Counted from the stretch's first letter, positions 17,354 to 25,191 are shown. The stretch: 50,028 nt of DNA from an uncultured Verrucomicrobiota bacterium (GCA_946615875.1 CAMOIK010000001.1:1-50028); one strand, 5' to 3'. Made by a program: numbers and translations. Notes: a model not told the origin generated them from the letters alone.

Positions 17354-18424
17354 CTATTCGGGCGGCGTCCAGTTCTGCATGGCGGAGTGAAGTTCTTCGA
17401 CGCGAGAGAGGTATTTGGCGGCTTCGCCCTGCGCCACCGCGTCCTTCGATTCCTGGAGGCGCGCTACTCTGTCCATCGTGCTCTTGTAGAACGCGGCGGC
17501 CTTTTTCGCCTCAACGGGCTTCTTGACCGGCTTGGCTGCTTCGCGCTCGCAGGAGGCGACGATCTTGATCATCTTCTGGCGGTCCGGATACTTCTTCAGG
17601 CGGTTGTTGAGCGAGGCCAGCTTCCTGTCGGATTTCAAGTCCGGCCACATCTTCAGCAATTCCTCTATGTCCCACATGGCCTGTCCCGGCGAAGAGTTGG
17701 AGTCGGAGATAAGCTCGGTCAGCCGCATGTCGCGTTTCTGGACGATTGCCGCCGAGAGGTGGCGGGCCTCCTCCGCCACGGCGGGATCTTTGTCTGCGGA
17801 CATCTTGCGCAGCCAGTTCAGGCCGGGTTTCATGGAATGGCCTTGGCTGAAGTGGTTCGTCACGTCGCCGGCGAGTTTGTCCACCTTGGCGATGCCGAAG
17901 ATCGGATGTTCGCGAGGCAGTTTGCGCACTGCCGCGAACGCGGCGGACGACGCCTTGGAGAAGTCGGTGCCGCTGTGCAGGACCTTGCCGTTCGTGCCGA
18001 CGACGTAGAAGAAGGGGAGTGATTTCGCGGCCGGCTCGCCTTCGGCCAGGCCGGCGTCGTTGTAGATCGGGATGCTCTTCTCCAGCGGTATTTCAAGATC
18101 CTTCATGGTTTCGGCGAACTTCGCCGCGTTCATGCGGTGTCCGCGCAGCGAGGCGATCGCTTTCAGACGGTAGAATTTGCTGTTTCTCGCCGTGCTCATG
18201 GCCTTGACCACCTTGTCGAGCGGCAGTTTCTTTATGGAGTCCTCGTTGAACGCCGCCACGATGACGACGGTGTCGATCAAGTCTTCCGGCTCGATAATCG
18301 CGCCGTTCACGCGGTTCTTCTCGCCGAGGCCGCGCCAGATTTCCTTGCCGTCATGTCCTGCCGCGCTGCCGCACATGGCCGTGAACCCGGCAAGCGCCGC
18401 CAACATCCACTGTTTCGCTTTCAT
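17354..18424 (-). CDS. secreted hypothetical protein: N-terminal thioredoxin-fold-like region without CxxC, then a Lys-rich helical C-terminal half
   Basis: The signal peptide is MKAKQWMLAALAGFTAMCGSAAG. The ORF is 356 aa and is directly preceded by a promoter box. No family is assigned with confidence. Confidence 0.65.
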   Translation of the reverse strand: MKAKQWMLAALAGFTAMCGSAAGHDGKEIWRGLGEKNRVNGAIIEPEDLIDTVVIVAAFNEDSIKKLPLDKVVKAMSTARNSKFYRLKAIASLRGHRMNAAKFAETMKDLEIPLEKSIPIYNDAGLAEGEPAAKSLPFFYVVGTNGKVLHSGTDFSKASSAAFAAVRKLPREHPIFGIAKVDKLAGDVTNHFSQGHSMKPGLNWLRKMSADKDPAVAEEARHLSAAIVQKRDMRLTELISDSNSSPGQAMWDIEELLKMWPDLKSDRKLASLNNRLKKYPDRQKMIKIVASCEREAAKPVKKPVEAKKAAAFYKSTMDRVARLQESKDAVAQGEAAKYLSRVEELHSAMQNWTPPE

Positions 18425-18427
18425 GGC

Positions 18428-18450
18428 CGATAGTATAGCATATTTTCGCC
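18428..18450 (-). promoter_or_regulatory. variant promoter box GGCGAAAATATGCTATACTATCG (TATACT at 18437-18432)
   Basis: It has the same flanks as the main box, with TGC in place of TGG. The ATG at 18424 is 7 nt after the hexamer. Confidence 0.6.
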
Positions 18451-18540
18451 GCTTCGTCTATGGCAAAACGACACGCGCGACAGGCGCGGCAGATGGCGTC
18501 GATAGCGGCTGGGCGGTGCATGCCATAGGCCGCCGCTTGT

Positions 18541-18699
18541 TCCATATATAGACTGCCTCTTCTCCATATATGGACTGCCCCCTGCTCTATATATAGACTA
18601 CCCTCTTCTCTATATATAGACTGCCGCCTTCTCCATATATAGACGGCCGCTTCTCCATATATGGACTGCCGCCCGCTCCATATATGGCGTCGCCGAGTC
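18541..18699 (+). repeat. iteron-like tandem array, 7 units of 22-23 bp, unit TC(C/T)ATATAT(A/G)GAC(T/G)GCC-N5-6
   Basis: Units start at 18541, 18563, 18586, 18609, 18632, 18654 and 18677; the last unit is degenerate. Units 3 and 4 contain the AT-only palindromic core TCTATATATAGA. The array lies in the divergent intergenic region between two promoter boxes. Confidence 0.9.
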
Positions 18700-18816
18700 C
18701 CCAAGGGCGGCGGTTGGGCGGTGATGCAAGCCAATGGGAGCGACGAAGGCGCAAGCCCCATGATGCGCTTGCGCGGCAACCCGGATGCGAACACGCACGG
18801 CGCGCGGCTCGCGCCC

Positions 18817-18848
18817 TTGACCCGCTGCGCGGAATTATGGTATAATAG
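18817..18848 (+). promoter_or_regulatory. promoter: -35 TTGACC (18817-18822), 18-bp spacer, extended -10 TTATGGTATAATAG (TATAAT at 18841-18846)
   Basis: It is the only box in the window with a clear -35. It lies 27 nt upstream of the ATG at 18873, which has the SD AAAGGAAAG. Confidence 0.7.
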
Positions 18849-18872
18849 CGACACCTGAAAGGAAAGACAGAC

Positions 18873-19511
18873 ATGAGAGACTTGTTCATTTGCTGTGCGG
18901 GCGGGCTGGGGCGCGAAGCGGTCTGGACTGTCGAGCGCATCAACAAGGCTGCTCAGCAGCCTCTCTGGAACGTAATCGGCTTCGCGGACGACGATCCTGC
19001 CAAGGCCGAAGGGAATTTCGAGGGCTATCCGATGCTCGGGAGCTGCGAGAAGGCTTCCAAGGACTACCCCGGCGCGTCGGTGTTCATTGCGATAGGCGAC
19101 AACAAGCTGCGCGCCGAGATATACAGGCGGCTGCGCGGGCACGACTTTCCGGCGATCATCGACCCGTCGGCGCAGGTCTCGCCCACGACCGAGTTCAAGC
19201 ACGGCACCTACATCGCCGCCGAGGCCGTGGTTTCGGTGGGCACGGAGATAGGCAAGTTCGCGATCATCAACGCCCGCGCCGGAGTCGGCCACGATTGCCA
19301 GCTGGGCGACTTCGTGCAGATTTCGCCCGGCGTCTCCATTTCCGGGAACTGCAAGATCGGCGACTACGTGCTGATGGGCACCAACTCCTGCACCGCGCCG
19401 CACATGACCGTGGGCGACAACGCGACGGTGTGCGCCGGCACGCCCGTCTTGAAGGATGTGGGGCCTGGCGAGACGCTCTCGCCTTTCGGCACGCTGAAGA
19501 GCCAGGCGTGA
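18873..19511 (+). CDS. sugar O-acyltransferase, NeuD/PglD-like hexapeptide-repeat family
   Basis: The N-terminal Rossmann-like LFICCAGGLGREA is followed by left-handed beta-helix hexapeptide repeats (IGKFAIINARAGVGHDCQLGDFVQISPGVSISGNCKIGDYVLMG). Confidence 0.8.
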   Translation: MRDLFICCAGGLGREAVWTVERINKAAQQPLWNVIGFADDDPAKAEGNFEGYPMLGSCEKASKDYPGASVFIAIGDNKLRAEIYRRLRGHDFPAIIDPSAQVSPTTEFKHGTYIAAEAVVSVGTEIGKFAIINARAGVGHDCQLGDFVQISPGVSISGNCKIGDYVLMGTNSCTAPHMTVGDNATVCAGTPVLKDVGPGETLSPFGTLKSQA

Positions 19512-21955
19512 AGTGGGCGCTGTACAACCTGGCGTTCGCGCTGGTGTTCCCGGCGCTGCTGCCGGGATTTTTGCTGCGGATGGCGCGGCGGGGCGGCTAT
19601 CGCGCCCGCATTGGCGACCGCTTCGCCCTCTACCCTGAAAGCGTTATCGACGCCTTCGCCGCGCGGTCCGTCTCCGGCGCGGCGCCGGTCTGGATACACG
19701 CCGTCTCGGTGGGCGAAGTGCAGGTGGCGCTGCAGCTGATGAGGGAGTGGCGCGCCGCCGAGCCGGACGTGCGTTTCTGTTTCTCGACCACCAGCTCGAC
19801 GGGCTGGAAGATCGCGGAAGGGGGGGTGGGCGCCAACGACGTGCTGATATACAACCCTCTCGACTTCCCCAACTTCGTGAAATCGGCGCTGCGCACGGTG
19901 CGGCCGCGCGCCATCGTCCTCACAGAGAGCGAGATATGGCCGGTCTTCATACGCCGCGCAAGGAAGGCCGGAATCCCGCTCTTCCTGATCAACGCCCGCG
20001 TAAGCGACCGCAGCGCCCCGCGCTATCGCCTGGCCAGATGGTTCTTCAAGGACGTGTTTTCCTGCTTCACCGCCATTTTCGCCCAGTCTCGCCTGGACGC
20101 CGAGCGCCTGATCGCGGCAGGGGTGCCGTCCGGCATAGTCAAGGTGACGGGCAGCTTCAAGTTCGACGTGGCGCGGCGCAACCCGTCCAAGGAGAAGGAG
20201 TTGGCGGACTGGATCGCCGCTTCCTGCGGCGCGGCGGACGCGCCGCGCCGCCGCATACTCCTTGGCGCGTCCACCTGGCCGGGTGAGGACGAGGTGATGC
20301 TGCGGGTCTACGCCGCCATGCCGGACGACGTGCTGCTGGTCATCGCGCCACGCCACTTCGAAAAGGCGGATGCCGTGGAGGCGAACATCGTCAAGGCGGG
20401 CTTCCGCTGCGTCAGGCGCTCGAAAGGCGGCAGCGCAAACGCCGATTGCGGCGGCGCCAGGTGCGTCTTCCTGGCCGACACCACCGGCGAGCTGATGGGA
20501 CTCTACGGCATCGCGGACGCCGTGTTCGTGGGCAAGTCGCTGTGCGAGCACGGCAGCCAGAACATGATCGAGCCGTGCCTCTGCGGCAAGCCCACCGTCG
20601 TGGGGCCGAACACCGAGAACTTCCGCCCGGTCATGAGCGACCTGCTGGAGGCGGGGGCGATAGTCCAGGCCGGCGACGAGGCGCAGGTCGCCGCCACGCT
20701 CGTCAAATGGCTCTCGCCGGAGGGACGCTCCGAAGCGCAGGCGCTGGGGGCGCGCGCCGCCGCCGCCGTCGCCGGGCGCGTGGGCGTGGTGCCGCGCTGC
20801 CTCGGCGAGATACGCGACGCGCTTGGCCTCGCCGCGCCGCCGCAGGAGGTGGCGCACGGCACGCGTCGGCGCACTCCTTGGCTTTGGCTCGCGCCGACGG
20901 CCGTGGCCGTCGCGCTGGCCGCGGCCATCCTCTCTGGCGGCAGACCGGACGCTCAGGACTTCGACGCCATCGCGGATGCCGCCGCGGAGCATTTCAGATA
21001 CAGGCCGCTCGACACCATCGAACGCTTCATCGGGCGCATCGAGAAGCCTGACGCGTCGGCCACCAACGACATCGTCTTCGTCAAGGACGGCAGACGCAGA
21101 AACTGGAGCGACGTGATTCGCGCCGCTTCGCCGGACGCCGCGATCGTGTGGCCGCTGGACGTCCGCGACATGACCATGGCGGAGTTCAAGGAAGCGCTCG
21201 ACTCTTTCCCGTGCCGAGACGCGCACCTGTGGATGCCGGGCGAGACCGATTGGGTGCTGGCCGGGCGCATCGCGCCCGCCAGCGTCGCGATAGGCGACAT
21301 CCTGGAGGCGTTCTCCGACGAGACCGCCATAGACGATCTGGCGGAGGCCAGGTGCGACACGCTCCCGGAGTTCTTCGCCAACTACGTCGGCGACAGGATG
21401 ACGTGCATGGGCGCGTTTACGGGCGACCTCTCCGCCAAAGTCGCGCCGGAAAGGTTCGTCACGCAGGAGATACCGGACGTCGGATGGGTCGCGCCGGGCG
21501 ATCTCGACGAGGACATACTTGAAGCCACGGCGCAGGAGATGCGCTCGCTCATGCTCGTGCGCCGCAGCGTGATAGAGGGCAACATGCTCGCCAAGCAGGG
21601 CAAGACGGACGACGCGATAGAGAAATGGGCCTCCGCCCTGCTGCGCAATCCGCACGACACCATGCTTCTCGGCCGCCTCCACCGCCTCGCGGTCAATGCC
21701 ATAACCTTTGAGAAGGTCGGCAACATGAGCGCCGCCGCCAAGTGCTACGAAACGATGCTTTGCGTCTGCCCGACAGACATCGCCGCCGTCATGGCCTATG
21801 CGAACTGCCTCCGGCGGCTCGGCAAGAACCAGATGGCGGACGACGTGATGAAGCGCGTCGAGAGCCTGAAGCGCTCCATGGCCGCCGAGGAGGCCGGCGA
21901 GAAGGGCGGCGACGCGCCGACGCCGCCACAGGAAAACCGAAAGGAGGAGAAATGA
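19508..21955 (+). CDS. waaA: 3-deoxy-D-manno-octulosonic acid (Kdo) transferase fused to a C-terminal TM helix plus a ~350-aa uncharacterised/TPR-like module
   Basis: GTG at 19508 overlaps the upstream stop (GTGA). The WaaA motifs are VWIHAVSVGEV and a GT-B C-lobe (GGSQNMIEP-type SLCEHGSQNMIEP). A hydrophobic helix, PWLWLAPTAVAVALAAAILSGG, lies at about 20875-20940. An unassigned domain follows, then TPR-like helices and an acidic/Lys tail. The total is 815 aa, against about 420 for a typical WaaA. Confidence 0.8.
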   Translation: MKWALYNLAFALVFPALLPGFLLRMARRGGYRARIGDRFALYPESVIDAFAARSVSGAAPVWIHAVSVGEVQVALQLMREWRAAEPDVRFCFSTTSSTGWKIAEGGVGANDVLIYNPLDFPNFVKSALRTVRPRAIVLTESEIWPVFIRRARKAGIPLFLINARVSDRSAPRYRLARWFFKDVFSCFTAIFAQSRLDAERLIAAGVPSGIVKVTGSFKFDVARRNPSKEKELADWIAASCGAADAPRRRILLGASTWPGEDEVMLRVYAAMPDDVLLVIAPRHFEKADAVEANIVKAGFRCVRRSKGGSANADCGGARCVFLADTTGELMGLYGIADAVFVGKSLCEHGSQNMIEPCLCGKPTVVGPNTENFRPVMSDLLEAGAIVQAGDEAQVAATLVKWLSPEGRSEAQALGARAAAAVAGRVGVVPRCLGEIRDALGLAAPPQEVAHGTRRRTPWLWLAPTAVAVALAAAILSGGRPDAQDFDAIADAAAEHFRYRPLDTIERFIGRIEKPDASATNDIVFVKDGRRRNWSDVIRAASPDAAIVWPLDVRDMTMAEFKEALDSFPCRDAHLWMPGETDWVLAGRIAPASVAIGDILEAFSDETAIDDLAEARCDTLPEFFANYVGDRMTCMGAFTGDLSAKVAPERFVTQEIPDVGWVAPGDLDEDILEATAQEMRSLMLVRRSVIEGNMLAKQGKTDDAIEKWASALLRNPHDTMLLGRLHRLAVNAITFEKVGNMSAAAKCYETMLCVCPTDIAAVMAYANCLRRLGKNQMADDVMKRVESLKRSMAAEEAGEKGGDAPTPPQENRKEEK

Positions 21956-22665
21956 GAAGGCTGTCCATCGCGCTGGCGCTCGCCGGCTCGGTCTTCGCGG
22001 GCTGTTTCACCATACACCGCTCGGAACTCCCCGACGTGCAGATGTCGCGTCTGCCGCAGGGACGCGAGGTCAGGGTGGCGCTGGCCGGTTTCGAGGCCAC
22101 CGTCACCACCTACCTCCCCATCCGCGAACAGACGACCGTCTGGAGCGACGGGCCGGGCTACTATCATCGCGGACGCCGCCACGACTACTACGGACCGCGC
22201 ACGGAAACCTGGACCTCCACCACCTACGTGCCGCAGGTGCGCGACGACGACACCTTTATCAAGTTCGCCGCCGACACGCTGGAAGGCGCGGGCTGCATAA
22301 TGGCCTCCACCAACATCGACTACGTCGTCGATGTGCGCTTCGGCGGGCCGGAAATCACCAACACCGACAGGACGGTCGAGGCCCTCTGGGTCGTCCTTTC
22401 GCTGCTTTCCGCCGATTACAGCGCGCAGACGCGCACGGCGCGCATGAAGATACGCGACGGCGAGACCGGCAAGGTGGTGTTCATGCGCGACTACACCGAA
22501 AAGTGTTCGGCCGCCGTCTGGGGGCCGATCCCGATATTCTCGCCTCTGGCGGCGACCGACACGGGCGACGCCGCCATGCAGGCCAGGGCGTTGAACGCGC
22601 TGACCTTGCGGGCGATGGCCGACGCCACGGCGTTTCTCGCCTCGGCATCCGCTGCGGCGCAATGA
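21952..22665 (+). CDS. lipoprotein, function unknown
   Basis: ATG at 21952 overlaps the waaA stop (ATGA) and is preceded by AAGGAGGAG. The lipobox is LAGSVFAGC. Confidence 0.7.
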   Translation: MRRLSIALALAGSVFAGCFTIHRSELPDVQMSRLPQGREVRVALAGFEATVTTYLPIREQTTVWSDGPGYYHRGRRHDYYGPRTETWTSTTYVPQVRDDDTFIKFAADTLEGAGCIMASTNIDYVVDVRFGGPEITNTDRTVEALWVVLSLLSADYSAQTRTARMKIRDGETGKVVFMRDYTEKCSAAVWGPIPIFSPLAATDTGDAAMQARALNALTLRAMADATAFLASASAAAQ

Positions 22666-23804
22666 AGATCCCGGTGACAGCCTGGTGGGCGGCGTCCGCA
22701 CTGGGCGTCGGCCCCGAGGAGATGGCCGCGCACCTCAGGCGCGGCGAAGCGCCGGGTATGCGCCGCATCTCCGGCGACATCCCGGGACGCGAAATTTTCT
22801 TTGGAGGGATAGACGCTCCTCTGCCGGAGATCGGCGACGCCCGCTGGAACATGAGGGCGTGCCGCCTCCTCGAACTGGCCATTGGCGGGATGCGCGACGA
22901 ACTGGCCGCGGCCATAGCCCGCCATGGCGCCGCCCGCGTGGGCGTGGTGCTGGGCGCCAGCAACACGGGCGTCGACGAGGCCGAAAGCTTCGTAGATCGC
23001 TGGCTGGCGGAAGGAGAGAAGCCAGGCGAGATGGAGTTTTCCATGCTGGAGCTTGGCACCCCCGCCGCCTATCTGGCTGGGAGGCTCGGCATAGAGGGAC
23101 CGGCTTACGTCGTATCGACGGCGTGCTCCAGCGCCGCCAAGGCGTTCGGTGCCGCCGAGCGACTGATACGCGGCGGCGTCTGCGACGCCGTCGTCACCGG
23201 CGGCGTGGACGGCAGATGCCGCTTCGCGATGAACGGTTTCGCCGCTCTCGGCGCGCTGGCGCAGGAACGCTGCCGCCCTCTCGCGCCGGATCGCGACGGC
23301 ATAAATCTCGGCGAGGCGGTGGCTTTGTTTTTGCTGGAGGCCCCAGGGCGTTCCCAAGGCGCGGCGGCGTTTCTCTGCGGCGTCGGCGAGAGCAGCGACG
23401 CCTACCACGCCACCGCCCCGGACCCGGAAGGACGCGGAGCGGAGGCCGCTATGCGCGCGGCCATCGCCGCCGCAGGCATTCGCCCGGCTGACGTCGCATA
23501 CGTCAATCTCCACGGCACGGGCACACAGGCGAACGACGCGATGGAGTTGAAGGCGCTCGGGCGCGTGTTCGGCTTCTCCACGGAAGACGCGCTTTCGCGC
23601 TCCTCGTCGCCGCGCCTGGATGTGGCGGGGCTGGCGGCGGAGAGCACAAAGCATTTGACCGGCCACTGCCTGGGCGCGGCGGGCGCCATCGAGGCCGCCA
23701 TATGTCTGCTGCGGCTGGACGAACTGGGCGGCGGCGGGGCGGCGCTCAGCAACTCTTTCGCGTTCGGAGGCTCAAATGCAAGCGTCGTCTTACAGTCTAG
23801 GTGA
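22662..23804 (+). CDS. beta-ketoacyl-[ACP] synthase family protein (KAS I/II-like, 380 aa)
   Basis: ATG at 22662 overlaps the upstream stop (ATGA). The Cys-His-His triad context is STACSSAAKAF, DAYHATAPDP and NLHGTGTQAND, plus a C-terminal SFAFGGSNAS. Confidence 0.85.
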   Translation: MKIPVTAWWAASALGVGPEEMAAHLRRGEAPGMRRISGDIPGREIFFGGIDAPLPEIGDARWNMRACRLLELAIGGMRDELAAAIARHGAARVGVVLGASNTGVDEAESFVDRWLAEGEKPGEMEFSMLELGTPAAYLAGRLGIEGPAYVVSTACSSAAKAFGAAERLIRGGVCDAVVTGGVDGRCRFAMNGFAALGALAQERCRPLAPDRDGINLGEAVALFLLEAPGRSQGAAAFLCGVGESSDAYHATAPDPEGRGAEAAMRAAIAAAGIRPADVAYVNLHGTGTQANDAMELKALGRVFGFSTEDALSRSSSPRLDVAGLAAESTKHLTGHCLGAAGAIEAAICLLRLDELGGGGAALSNSFAFGGSNASVVLQSR

Positions 23805-24219
23805 ACTCATTCCGCATCGCGACGCGATGGTGCTGATCGACGAAGTCGTCTCTTGCGATCTCGCCGCCGCCACGCTGACCGCCGCATTCACGGCGAAGCC
23901 GCAGTGGCAGGAGAACTGGACGGCGATAGAGTTCATGGCGCAGACCGCCGCCGCGCTGGCCGGCGCATCCGACCGCGCGGCGGGATGGCGCGGCGCGCCG
24001 CGCCCGGGCTTCCTGCTCGGCACGAGAAAACTGGAACTGTTCCTGGATCGTTTCGTCGTCGGCCGCCGCTATCTGGCGACCGCCCGCAACTCCTTCTGCG
24101 CAGACGGCGCCGCGAGCTTCGAATGCGAAATCCGCGACGGCGAGACGCTCGTCGCGAAGGCCACGCTCACCGCATACAGGCCGGACGACGCCGGCGCCTC
24201 GCTCGACTCCTTCGCCTAG
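23776..24219 (+). CDS. hotdog-fold 3-hydroxyacyl-ACP dehydratase-like protein (FabZ/ApeI-like)
   Basis: ATG at 23776 lies 5 nt after GGAGG, inside the 3' end of the KAS gene (29-nt overlap). LIPHRDAMVLIDEV and IEFMAQTAA are typical of hotdog dehydratases. Confidence 0.7.
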   Translation: MQASSYSLGELIPHRDAMVLIDEVVSCDLAAATLTAAFTAKPQWQENWTAIEFMAQTAAALAGASDRAAGWRGAPRPGFLLGTRKLELFLDRFVVGRRYLATARNSFCADGAASFECEIRDGETLVAKATLTAYRPDDAGASLDSFA

Positions 24220-24225
24220 TCTGCG

Positions 24226-25191
24226 CTACAGCACCGACATCGCCAGAGCGATTATCGGAGGCATCGTGACGATGCTCAACAGCGTAGTGGCGCTGACCAG
24301 CCCCACGGAAAGATCCACGTCGCGCCCGAACTTCGCCGCGAATATCGCCACCATGGCGGCGACCGGCGCGGACGCCGCGACAACCATGGACAGCATCATG
24401 TCCCGGTCCAGCCAGTGCCGCAGGGGATAAAGCGCGGCGAGCATCGTCAGAGGGAACGCGACTAGGCGCATTCCCGCCGCCGCGTAGGCAGCCTTCGTCC
24501 TTGCCACGCCGCGAAGATTCGCGCCGGCCAGATAGTAGCCGATGGCCAGCATCGCCATGGGCGTGTTCAGCGCCGCCATCATCGCCACCGGCTGTGCCAG
24601 CATCTGCGGCAGCGTCGTGCGGGAGACGAAAAGCCCCATGCCGATCGCCAGCCCCACCGTGCCGGGATTCAGCAGAAACGGCGAGCGCAGCGCGGCCAAC
24701 GCCGAACGCCGCGTCGCCGACACGCCGCCGTCGCTCTCCGCCCCATTCATCTGCCACAGGCCCCAGCTCCACATCGCCACGTTGAACACCACCACATAGA
24801 CGATGCCGAAGAATACGCCCCGTTCGCCGAGTATCGCGTATTCGAGAGGGATGCCCATGAAACCGGCGTTGGAGAACACCGCCGACAGGCGCAGCACGGG
24901 GCGGCGCGGCGAGTCGCCGCCTCGGAAGAGCGCGGACGCCGCCGCGATCGCCACGCAGTGCGCCACAGTCGACACCGCGAACGCCGCCGCCAGCTGGCGC
25001 AGCATGGCGCCGTCGAACGGGCGCTGGAACACGTCTATGATAAGCGACGGGGTGACGAGGACGACGAGGATGTTCACCATGCCTTTGACGGCGGCGTCAT
25101 CTGCCAGCCGCGCCAGCCGGCACGCCGCGCCGGCCGCAACCAGCATGAACAGAATCCACACCTGCGAGGATACTGCAAGGAAGTTTTCCAT
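24226..25191 (-). CDS. AEC (auxin efflux carrier) family transporter
   Basis: It is a polytopic membrane protein of 321 aa. The FSNAGFMGIPL motif and two-lobe hydrophobic architecture are typical of AEC permeases. Confidence 0.8.
   Translation of the reverse strand: MENFLAVSSQVWILFMLVAAGAACRLARLADDAAVKGMVNILVVLVTPSLIIDVFQRPFDGAMLRQLAAAFAVSTVAHCVAIAAASALFRGGDSPRRPVLRLSAVFSNAGFMGIPLEYAILGERGVFFGIVYVVVFNVAMWSWGLWQMNGAESDGGVSATRRSALAALRSPFLLNPGTVGLAIGMGLFVSRTTLPQMLAQPVAMMAALNTPMAMLAIGYYLAGANLRGVARTKAAYAAAGMRLVAFPLTMLAALYPLRHWLDRDMMLSMVVAASAPVAAMVAIFAAKFGRDVDLSVGLVSATTLLSIVTMPPIIALAMSVL

What the first reader, a model, noticed from the sequence alone, without database searches (positions are those of the whole stretch)
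18873..24219. Translationally coupled five-gene envelope operon: NeuD-like acyltransferase, WaaA fusion, lipoprotein, stand-alone KAS and hotdog dehydratase
Every junction in the five-gene unit is an overlap: GTGA at 19508-19511, ATGA at 21952-21955, ATGA at 22662-22665, and a 29-nt overlap at 23776-23804 with GGAGG inside the upstream gene. That implies co-translation and fixed stoichiometry. The gene combination is not a standard one. A Kdo transferase (LPS inner core) sits with a hexapeptide O/N-acyltransferase, an unknown lipoprotein, and a ketosynthase plus dehydratase pair. That pair is of the kind seen in aryl-polyene and other specialised lipid clusters. However, there is no ACP, ketoreductase or thioesterase here. 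The operon is preceded by the 7-unit repeat array. One reading is a dedicated acyl-chain elongation/desaturation module feeding an unusual LPS core or lipid A, or a lipoprotein modification. Another is simply a lineage-specific packing of unrelated envelope genes.
Basis: partly seen in the sequence, partly recalled or inferred. Interest (0 to 1): 0.6.

Follow-up and report, generated by a model that had tools for sequence, protein, structure and literature searches.

The report
Kdo-transferase operon with appended polyene-synthase genes
The five overlapping genes are real and conserved, but the ketosynthase and dehydratase are two parts of an aryl-polyene-type lipid pathway whose other genes are scattered around this gut Kiritimatiellia genome. 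They were tacked onto an older Kdo-transferase/lipoprotein operon and are not a private acyl-chain module for LPS.

Summary
Observation confirmed. Five + strand genes (18873-24219) follow one strong promoter-like site, and every junction overlaps as described.

Interpretation revised. Genes 1-3 are a PglD/NeuD-type sugar N-acetyltransferase, WaaA fused to a TM/TPR domain, and a lineage-specific lipoprotein. They form an older operon that exists without genes 4-5 in some relatives, one of which has no aryl-polyene (APE) genes that I could find.

Genes 4-5 are orthologues of ApeO (elongating ketosynthase) and ApeP (the Glu-donating half of a heterodimeric dehydratase). Neither can work alone.
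- Partners elsewhere in this MAG: two ACPs plus an ApeG-H-I fusion (C72), ApeC (C50), ApeQ ketoreductase (C61), ApeR (C147), ApeM (C18), ApeD (C112), ApeJ (C64).
- Same-genus relatives keep all of these in one compact cluster.
- In the window's clade the pathway is dispersed, often behind housekeeping genes (fmt, glnS). ApeO-ApeP were appended once to the waaA operon: all 12 of the clade's KS sequences sampled form one branch (support 99/96).

A dedicated LPS or lipid A acyl module is unlikely.

The earlier scan note on the upstream repeat array (a dispersed repeat) stands.

The parts
18817..18846 (+). Sigma-70-like promoter (TTGACC, 18-nt spacer, TG-TATAAT), 27 nt upstream of the first start codon
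   Evidence: 11 of 12 matches. It is the only + strand promoter-like site in 18300-24400.
18873..19511 (+). Gene 1: PglD/NeuD/VioB-type sugar N-acetyltransferase (212 aa; PglD_N domain plus left-handed beta-helix)
   Evidence: TIGR03570 177.2 bits (cut-off 160.8). PF17836 and PF00132. Adjacent to waaA in every relative examined. A divergent PglC-like Bac_transf gene lies upstream in L093, L094 and L143.
19508..20842 (+). Gene 2, N-terminal part: WaaA (Kdo transferase) domain, residues 1-445
   Evidence: PF04413 191.8 bits; best NF004388, 285.6 bits over 4-438, below the 438 equivalog cut-off. The only copy in the assembly.
20879..20932 (+). Gene 2: extra transmembrane helix after the WaaA domain (residues about 458-475, preceded by RRR)
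   Evidence: Sequence. Helix 13-30 of the C-terminal model, though at low pLDDT.
20933..21955 (+). Gene 2, C-terminal part: conserved alpha/beta domain of unknown function plus three TPR-like repeats (about 21509-21904) and a Glu/Lys-rich tail. It is a separate gene in some relatives.
   Evidence: Alignment A3 has 41 invariant columns. Model pLDDT is 70.5, with the TPR part at 80-96. PDB fold matches are to TPR proteins only. Pfam TPR hits are weak. Separate 366- and 372-aa genes in L014 and L143.
21952..22665 (+). Gene 3: lineage-specific lipoprotein (237 aa; invariant lipobox Gly17-Cys18)
   Evidence: 154 homologues (the few that carry a source name are Kiritimatiellia) and no Pfam family. 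Model pLDDT 83.9. Weak matches to LptE/PelC/DUF330-type alpha/beta lipoproteins, not LolA/LolB. Not LptE: the true LptE is on C103.
22662..23804 (+). Gene 4: ApeO-type elongating ketosynthase (380 aa; Cys-His-His motifs TACSS, AYHATAP, NLHGTGT present)
   Evidence: PRK09185 359.9 bits against fabF 176.3; best PDB hits 6qsp_A (260.7 bits) and 7f28_B; 6QSP is the X. doucetiae ApeO-ApeC complex per PMC8358021, and 7F28 is named in that paper on A. baumannii ApeO-ApeC; FabF scores at most 139; lies inside the ApeO clade, away from the genome's own FabF and ApeR.
23776..24219 (+). Gene 5: ApeP-type half-dehydratase (147 aa). It keeps the Glu of AIEFMAQ and lacks the catalytic His motif GHFP.
   Evidence: PF22817 33.8 bits (cut-off 27); the only PDB hit is 6qsr_B; alignment with the genome's own FabZ and ApeI domains shows the complementary His/Glu pattern.

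Best explanation
The unit is a composite operon.

Older part (genes 1-3). It encodes a PglD/NeuD-type nucleotide-sugar N-acetyltransferase, the genome's single Kdo transferase WaaA, and a lineage-specific lipoprotein. WaaA is joined through an extra membrane helix to a conserved alpha/beta plus TPR domain that is probably periplasmic. This part is a conserved envelope operon of gut Kiritimatiellia.

Appended part (genes 4-5). These are ApeO and ApeP, two components of an aryl-polyene-type (APE-like) type II polyketide/fatty-acid synthase. ApeO is the elongating ketosynthase and needs the chain-length factor ApeC (contig C50). ApeP supplies only the Glu of a composite dehydratase site, and the His comes from the ApeI domain of an ApeG-H-I fusion (C72).

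Rest of the pathway, encoded elsewhere in this MAG:
- two ACPs (C72)
- FabG2-type ketoreductase ApeQ (C61)
- second ketosynthase ApeR (C147)
- LolA-like protein (C72)
- ApeM-like membrane protein (C18)
- acyltransferase ApeD (C112)
- GT2 glycosyltransferase ApeJ (C64)

History. In one ancestor of the window's clade the ApeO-ApeP pair left the ancestral compact cluster and was fused, stop codon over start codon, to the 3' end of the waaA operon. It is now made from the same promoter and is translationally coupled to the preceding gene.

Shown: gene identities, partners elsewhere, the complementary catalytic residues, the compact cluster in relatives, a single origin of the linkage, and independence of the two modules.

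Inferred: one transcript, translational coupling, a polyene lipid as the product, and periplasmic location of the TPR domain.
For: Identity of genes 4-5:
- PRK09185 scores 359.9 bits against fabF 176.3, and PF22817 is above its cut-off.
- Best PDB matches are the ApeO:ApeC entries 6qsp and 7f28 (the latter named in the A. baumannii ApeO-ApeC paper, not checked to a chain here) and 6qsr, which I take from recall to be the ApeI:ApeP entry (6QSP identified in PMC8358021).
- In the ML tree the window's KS sits in a clade of 12 (99/96; 10 of them shown linked to waaA or the TPR gene). Its sister is a KAS-DH-KR type clade, then compact-cluster Kiritimatiellia, all inside ApeO and separated from FabF and ApeR by a branch with 100/99 support.

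Incompleteness of the pair:
- ApeP-like rows lack GHFP and keep AIE(F/Y)MAQ. ApeI domains have GHFP and lack the Glu. This matches the published single-site ApeI/ApeP heterodimer, and the ApeH-ApeI fusion of A. baumannii (PMC8041823).

Partners in the same genome:
- ACP-ACP-[AMP-binding + ApeI-like] on C72.
- KR on C61, 70-76% identical to the cluster KRs; the L089 KR, 76% identical to it, scores above the cut-off of NF004200 and 327 vs 339 on TIGR01831.
- ApeR is a PRK09116 equivalog at 571.7 bits.
- ApeC is PF13723 at 139.9 bits; ApeD is PF01553; ApeJ is GT2.

Ancestral compact cluster:
- G019 and G034 carry ACP-ACP-ApeG-ApeH/I-LolA-like-ApeM-small-O-P-Q-R; the Pfam scan and the downstream ApeC-ApeD-ApeJ genes were checked in G019 only.
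- Each genome has only one ApeO-type KS.

Stability of the dispersal:
- glnS-ApeR is conserved in 5 of 5 clade genomes.
- ACP-ACP-ApeGHI-LolA-like is conserved in 4 of 4, with fmt upstream in 3 of those 4.

Conservation of the five-gene order, with unrelated flanks: L014, L021, L093 and L094 (all five parts, though L021 is cut at its 5' end so the AT gene cannot be seen there); L017, L018, G008 and G012 (without the lipoprotein).

Independence of the two modules:
- AT-WaaA-TPR-lipoprotein occurs without KAS-DH in L142 and L143.
- The L142 genome has only FabF/FabZ-level hits to ApeO and ApeGHI.
- KAS-DH(-KR) occurs without waaA in at least 12 genomes.
Against: - No expression or chemical data exist.
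- The MAG is 65% complete. A thioesterase (ApeK) and a methyltransferase were not looked for, and the starter unit (aryl or not) is unknown.
- The ApeM assignment rests on 26% identity to a protein that has no Pfam family.
- Two relatives keep part of the older module next to the KS without waaA. L019 has TPR protein-KAS-DH and L016 has lipoprotein-KAS. This could hint at a functional tie between the TPR protein or lipoprotein and the KS rather than mere packing.
- In the own genome the KR follows an LpxL-family acyltransferase and a GT4 gene. That is a second ape/LPS adjacency, although the closest relatives do not share it.
- P0004 scores below the PRK09185 cut-off (359.9 against 407).
Confidence: 0.8

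Rival explanations
1. Dedicated lipid A/LPS acyl module. The KAS and DH build a special hydroxy, enoyl or long acyl chain that goes onto Kdo-lipid A or the core, by analogy with the rhizobial AcpXL-FabZXL-FabF-LpxXL system.
For: The pair is coupled to waaA by overlapping codons in about 10 genomes. In the own genome the pathway's KR follows an LpxL-family acyltransferase and a GT4 gene. Johnston et al. raised lipid A or a derivative as a possible APE anchor (PMC8253772).
Against: Orthologues in the same genus sit in a canonical APE cluster with their own acyltransferase (PF01553) and GT2, and the own genome keeps those orthologues. The waaA operon exists without the pair, and the pair exists without waaA. 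The LpxL-GT4-KR adjacency is absent from the closest relatives. The only APE lipid with a solved structure is a GalNAc-phosphate-glycerolipid, not LPS (bioRxiv 10.1101/2020.12.19.423268). No ACP or LpxXL-type gene lies next to the pair.
Confidence: 0.07
2. The TPR domain and lipoprotein of the older module were recruited as periplasmic or outer-membrane handling factors for the APE-like lipid, replacing the ApeN/LolB-like component. On this view the linkage is functional rather than accidental.
For: The gene just upstream of ApeO encodes a secreted or lipoprotein-type product in every arrangement seen. L016 keeps lipoprotein-KAS and L019 keeps TPR-KAS-DH without waaA. No homologue of the compact cluster's small secreted protein was found in the own genome.
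Against: The lipoprotein and TPR protein occur in genomes or contigs without ApeO-ApeP next to them, and in one genome where no ape genes were found. The lipoprotein is missing from four loci that have TPR-KAS-DH. Its fold is not LolA/LolB-like.
Confidence: 0.1
3. Ordinary housekeeping fatty-acid synthesis genes (FabF/FabZ or a FabB/FabA-like unsaturated fatty-acid pair) that happen to lie in an envelope operon.
For: JGI labels some homologues '3-oxoacyl-ACP synthase-1'. The Cys-His-His triad is intact.
Against: The genome has FabH-FabF-FabZ on C148, with fabF at 558 bits and FabZ at 112.2 bits against a cut-off of 113 (NF000582). P0004 scores 176 on fabF against a cut-off of 494, and P0005 scores 16.6 on FabZ against a cut-off of 113 and lacks the catalytic His. 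The tree separates them with 100/99 support.
Confidence: 0.02

Closest known systems
Aryl polyene (APE) biosynthetic gene cluster of E. coli CFT073, Xenorhabdus doucetiae and Acinetobacter baumannii (apeA-R): ApeO:ApeC KS-CLF and ApeI:ApeP dehydratase
   Same: Genes 4-5 match ApeO and ApeP by HMM, PDB sequence search and phylogeny. The ApeO-ApeP gene order is kept. The His (ApeI) and Glu (ApeP) split of the active site is kept. ApeI is fused to ApeH as in A. baumannii. The genome also holds two ACPs, a FabG2-type KR, ApeR, ApeC, an acyltransferase and a GT2.
   Different: The pathway is not one cluster. It is spread over at least eight contigs, partly behind housekeeping genes (fmt, glnS, ligA). 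ApeO-ApeP are coupled to a waaA operon. No LolB-like ApeN was seen, and a thioesterase (ApeK) and a methyltransferase (ApeB) were not looked for. The product and starter unit are unknown, and the host is an anaerobic gut member of the PVC superphylum.
Rhizobial acpXL-fabZXL-fabF2XL-fabF1XL-lpxXL cluster (very-long-chain fatty acid for lipid A) (from my own knowledge of the literature)
   Same: Specialised KS and hotdog DH genes are associated with lipid A genes.
   Different: That cluster carries its own ACP and the LpxXL transferase side by side, and its DH is a complete FabZ-type enzyme. Here the pair is ApeO/ApeP-type, incomplete alone, and the waaA linkage is dispensable in relatives.
WaaA (KdtA) Kdo transferase, GT30
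   Same: The N-terminal 440 residues align end to end with WaaA models (PF04413 191.8 bits). It is the single copy in the assembly. An LptE and an LpxL-family gene are present elsewhere in the genome.
   Different: It carries a second TM helix plus a domain of about 340 aa (alpha/beta plus TPR) that is a separate gene in some relatives. Its scores are below the NCBIfam equivalog cut-offs.
PglD / NeuD / VioB family sugar N-acetyltransferases (TIGR03570)
   Same: Full-length match above the cut-off. PglD_N plus hexapeptide architecture. A PglC-like Bac_transf gene lies next to it in relatives.
   Different: The substrate sugar is unknown. Conserved adjacency to waaA is not a feature of the characterised members.

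Membership tests
APE-type type II PKS: ApeO ketosynthase | KS closer to ApeO than to FabF, FabB or ApeR, with a Cys-His-His triad | tested here: met
   motifs read. Caveat: 359.9 bits is below the PRK09185 cut-off of 407.
APE-type type II PKS: ApeO ketosynthase | A chain-length-factor partner (ApeC, Ketoacyl-synt_2) encoded in the genome | tested here: met
   C50 5016-5534: PF13723 139.9 bits and 43% identity to the ApeC-position gene of G019. The physical complex was not testable.
APE-type dehydratase ApeI:ApeP | ApeP-like hotdog protein above the Pfam cut-off, lacking His and keeping Glu, with an ApeI partner that has the His | tested here: met
   PF22817 33.8 bits (cut-off 27). PF22818 31.7 bits (cut-off 28.5) on C72. 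Complementary residues in alignment A2.
APE biosynthetic gene cluster | Two dedicated ACPs, an AasS-like ApeH and a FabG2-type KR (ApeQ) | tested here: met
APE biosynthetic gene cluster | Genes are co-located in a single cluster | tested here: not met
   Each dispersed gene has non-ape genes on both sides within its contig, except ApeD, which lies at a contig start. The dispersal is conserved in the clade. Compact clusters exist in G019 and G034.
APE biosynthetic gene cluster | Product is an aryl-headed conjugated polyene lipid (yellow pigment) | not testable with these tools
   No culture, chemistry or expression data.
Housekeeping FabF / FabZ | Scores above the fabF (TIGR03150) and FabZ (NF000582) cut-offs; FabZ His-Glu dyad | tested here: not met
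   176.3 against 493.75, and 16.6 against 113. His motif absent. True FabF/FabZ are on C148.
WaaA Kdo transferase | Full-length GT30 / PF04413 domain | tested here: met
   191.8 bits; aligned 4-438 to NF004388.
WaaA Kdo transferase | NCBIfam equivalog cut-off reached | tested here: not met
   Best score 285.6 against 438. The lineage is divergent and activity is untested.
NeuD/PglB/VioB sugar acetyltransferase (TIGR03570) | Full-length match above the curated cut-off | tested here: met
   177.2 against 160.8, residues 4-202.
LptE or LolB/ApeN-like lipoprotein (for gene 3) | Family HMM hit, or LolA/LolB-type fold | tested here: not met
   PF04390 hits C103 and C12, not the window. PF03886 hits C134 only. 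Fold search gives weak LptE/PelC/DUF330-type matches (TM at most 0.62 on the target) and no LolA/LolB match among the 50 best matches listed.
Rhizobial AcpXL/LpxXL-type lipid A acyl module | Own ACP and an LpxXL-type transferase adjacent to the KS/DH genes | tested here: not met
   Neither is in the operon or in the 50-kb contig.

The most novel reading that the evidence does not exclude
In this gut Kiritimatiellia clade the aryl-polyene-type lipid is no longer an accessory 'secondary metabolite' but a constitutive envelope component. Its genes have been wired into housekeeping operons (fmt, glnS, waaA). The stop/start coupling of ApeO-ApeP to WaaA-TPR-lipoprotein would then tie polyene-lipid output to Kdo-lipid A assembly. 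The polyene might be attached to an LPS-related glycolipid, or handled by the TPR/lipoprotein pair.
Probability: 0.1. Interest if true: 0.7.

Novelty: new variant of a known kind. Interest (0 to 1): 0.35.

Why it matters
[quoted passage not shown] Here a complete-looking APE-type gene set is split into at least six loci (eight contigs in this assembly), several behind housekeeping genes. Cluster-based tools such as antiSMASH would probably miss or truncate it in a whole clade of rumen and gut Kiritimatiellia.

The case also shows how a translationally coupled operon can join unrelated pathways. Overlapping stop and start codons are therefore not evidence of a shared function.

For envelope biology it flags two conserved unknowns next to the Kdo transferase: a TM/TPR domain and a lipoprotein.

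If the coupling to WaaA is functional, it would link polyene lipids to LPS assembly, and the anchor of APE lipids in most bacteria is still an open question.

Tried and rejected
- Housekeeping FabF/FabZ identity: rejected by HMM scores, the tree and the missing His.
- Gene 3 as LptE, PqiC/DUF330 or the LolB-like ApeN: no HMM hit, and the fold matches are weak and of a different type.
- Function of the alpha/beta part of the WaaA C-terminal domain: no Pfam hit. The whole-model PDB fold search returned only TPR proteins, and the N-terminal 75 residues are poorly modelled. In the window this domain also lacks about 30 residues that relatives have. Unresolved.
- C61 LpxL-family and GT4 genes as the pathway's ApeD and ApeJ: rejected, because the true orthologues are on C112 and C64, and the adjacency to the KR is not seen in the closest relatives.
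- rplI-ApeM linkage as a conserved feature: not conserved.
- Upstream repeat array as an operon-specific regulator: an earlier follow-up found it to be a dispersed repeat. I did not retest this beyond confirming the array.
- Caveat on the tree groups: L016 (lipoprotein-KAS only) and L023 (KAS at a contig edge) were placed in the 'WaaA' group without direct evidence of waaA, and L019 has only the TPR gene upstream.
- Literature search found antiSMASH-level reports of APE clusters in Verrucomicrobia and Lentisphaerae MAGs (PMC9769736, PMC7356697). The terms used did not target a dispersed arrangement or a waaA linkage, and none came up.

Full report
**Source and observation**

The window is the whole of contig C1 of a 1.74-Mb MAG with 172 contigs, estimated 65% complete. 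Homologues and related loci place it among uncultured rumen and gut Kiritimatiellia.

- GTGA at 19508-19511.
- ATGA at 21952-21955, preceded by AAAGGAGGAG.
- ATGA at 22662-22665.
- ATG at 23776, lying 29 nt inside the previous gene, with GGAGG at 23766-23770.

An independent gene caller gives the same genes on four other assemblies. A strong sigma-70-like site lies at 18817-18846. One terminator-like site falls inside waaA (19548-19567), but such matches are no more frequent than in shuffled sequence. A convergent transporter gene ends 6 nt after the last stop.

Overlapping junctions are frequent in this genome: 5 of the 17 other same-strand junctions overlap. The chain of four is therefore a normal tight operon, not an anomaly. 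The overlaps at the KAS start and at the KAS/DH junction recur in relatives.

**Gene identities**

- Gene 1 is a PglD/NeuD/VioB-family sugar N-acetyltransferase (TIGR03570 177 bits, cut-off 161).
- Gene 2 has a full WaaA domain (PF04413 192 bits). This is followed by a second TM helix, a conserved alpha/beta domain and three TPR-like repeats. It is the only waaA in the assembly.
- Gene 3 has no family. Its 154 homologues include no named member outside Kiritimatiellia, and all 35 aligned keep the lipobox Gly-Cys. Its model (pLDDT 84) resembles LptE/PelC/DUF330-type lipoproteins only weakly. It is not LptE, which lies on C103.
- Gene 4 scores best on PRK09185 (360 bits against 176 for fabF). 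Its best PDB matches are the ApeO chain of 6QSP (261 bits) and 7F28, with FabF at 139 or less.
- Gene 5 is ApeP-like (PF22817 above cut-off), and its only PDB hit is 6qsr_B.

**The pair is not self-sufficient**

Aligning gene 5 and its relatives with the genome's own FabZ and with ApeI domains shows a complementary pattern.
- ApeP-type proteins have lost the GHFP histidine motif but keep the AIE(F/Y)MAQ glutamate.
- ApeI domains have the histidine but not the glutamate.

This matches the published ApeI/ApeP heterodimer with one active site, including the ApeH-ApeI fusion of A. baumannii (PMC8041823). ApeO likewise works as a heterodimer with the chain-length factor ApeC (PMC8253772 and PMC8358021).

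**Partners elsewhere in the genome**

| Contig | Genes found |
|---|---|
| C72 | fmt, then two ACPs, a 534-aa membrane/AMP-binding/ApeI-like fusion, and a weak LolA-like gene |
| C61 | FabG2-type KR |
| C147 | ApeR (PRK09116, 572 bits), directly after glnS |
| C50 | ApeC-like (PF13723, 140 bits) |
| C112 | PF01553 acyltransferase |
| C64 | GT2 with a GtrA-type membrane domain, after ligA |
| C18 | ApeM-like membrane protein |

The housekeeping FabH-FabF-FabZ genes are on C148.

**Evolutionary context**

Each sampled genome of the genus has a single ApeO-type KS.

In G019 and G034 it lies in a compact cluster: ACP-ACP-ApeG-ApeH/I-LolA-like-ApeM-small secreted protein-O-P-Q-R. The Pfam scan, and the ApeC-acyltransferase-GT2 genes that follow ApeR, were checked in G019 only. 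In another group the KS-DH-KR trio stands alone behind a small Pro/His-rich zinc-ribbon protein.

The window's KS belongs to a clade of 12 (support 99/96). In 10 of the 12 the KS is shown to follow either the lipoprotein or the TPR gene of the waaA operon.
- The window, L014, L021, L093 and L094 have all parts (L021 is cut at its 5' end, so the AT gene cannot be seen there).
- L017, L018, G008 and G012 lack the lipoprotein.
- L019 has only the TPR gene upstream.

The flanks differ between these loci. The tree needs only one change for this label. I assigned L016 and L023 to the group on weaker grounds.

The dispersal is stable within the clade. glnS-ApeR is found in 5 of 5 genomes. ACP-ACP-ApeGHI-LolA-like is found in 4 of 4, with fmt upstream in 3 of them.

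**Independence of the two modules**

AT-WaaA-TPR-lipoprotein occurs without KS-DH in L142 and L143. The genome that holds L142 gives only FabF/FabZ-level matches to ApeO and ApeGHI. L093 and L143 share the downstream pseudopilin genes. In L093 the KS-DH pair sits where L143 has an unrelated 223-aa gene.

The older operon is therefore genes 1-3, and genes 4-5 were appended to it.

Synteny is conserved, the pair is not FabF/FabZ, and other copies exist.

The evidence nevertheless favours the second reading (lineage-specific packing) over a dedicated LPS or lipid A acyl module. The only APE lipid whose structure has been solved is a GalNAc-phosphate-glycerolipid (bioRxiv 10.1101/2020.12.19.423268).

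Some hints of a functional tie remain, and I keep about 0.1-0.17 in total for such readings.
- L016 keeps lipoprotein-KS and L019 keeps TPR-KS-DH without waaA.
- In the own genome the KR follows LpxL-family and GT4 genes, although this is not conserved.
- Johnston et al. raised lipid A as a possible APE anchor.

**Novelty and limits**

APE clusters have been reported in PVC MAGs at the antiSMASH level (PMC9769736, PMC7356697). The searches I ran, which did not target it, turned up no description of a fully dispersed APE pathway or of ApeO-ApeP fused to a waaA operon. I rate this a new variant of a known kind, of modest interest.

Limits:
- The MAG is incomplete.
- The functions of the TPR domain and the lipoprotein remain unknown.
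- The starter unit and the product are not determined.

Noticed in passing
own genome contigs C72 (1160-3815), C61 (2506-3195), C147 (1258-2478, - strand), C50 (5016-5534), C112 (174-896), C64 (1089-2153, - strand), C18 (10075-12918): A complete-looking APE-type gene set is scattered over at least eight contigs. Several genes sit directly downstream of housekeeping genes (fmt, glnS, ligA, rplI). The glnS-ApeR and fmt-ACP-ACP-ApeGHI linkages are conserved in clade relatives.
   Followed up: yes
own genome C61 354-4240 (L092): A lipid A late acyltransferase family gene (PF03279) and a GT4 glycosyltransferase directly precede the ApeQ-type ketoreductase, with a start/stop overlap, followed by gpsA. 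The closest relatives' KR loci do not share this arrangement.
   Followed up: partly
L089 9662-10000; L090 9513-9950: In relatives with the KAS-DH-KR arrangement, the gene just upstream of the KS encodes a small secreted protein. It has a CxxC...CxxC zinc-ribbon-like motif and a long Pro/His-rich tail, and has no family.
   Followed up: no
L016 9232-11039: A related species from the same sample (SRR873610) has lipoprotein-KAS as a two-gene unit between a fucokinase-like gene and a DEAD-box helicase gene. There is no waaA upstream and no ApeP downstream.
   Followed up: partly
window 20843-21952 (alignment A3, columns 80-110): The window's WaaA C-terminal domain lacks a segment of about 30 residues (a beta-alpha-beta-like stretch) that six of the seven aligned relatives carry; the seventh (L017) is not covered there. 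The alpha/beta domain may be degenerate here.
   Followed up: no
window 17354-18424 (- strand): The divergent upstream gene encodes a 356-aa secreted protein with no Pfam family. In relatives this position is often held by a PglC-like Bac_transf gene instead.
   Followed up: no
window 18541-18685: A tandem array of 23-bp units (6.4 copies) lies between the divergent genes, upstream of the promoter-like site. An earlier follow-up classed it as a dispersed intergenic repeat family.
   Followed up: partly
L093 10323-14203; L143 8444-12258: Type II secretion pseudopilin-like genes (N_methyl, T2SSG) follow the waaA operon in two relatives. In one of them the ApeO-ApeP pair is inserted between the operon and these genes.
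   Followed up: no
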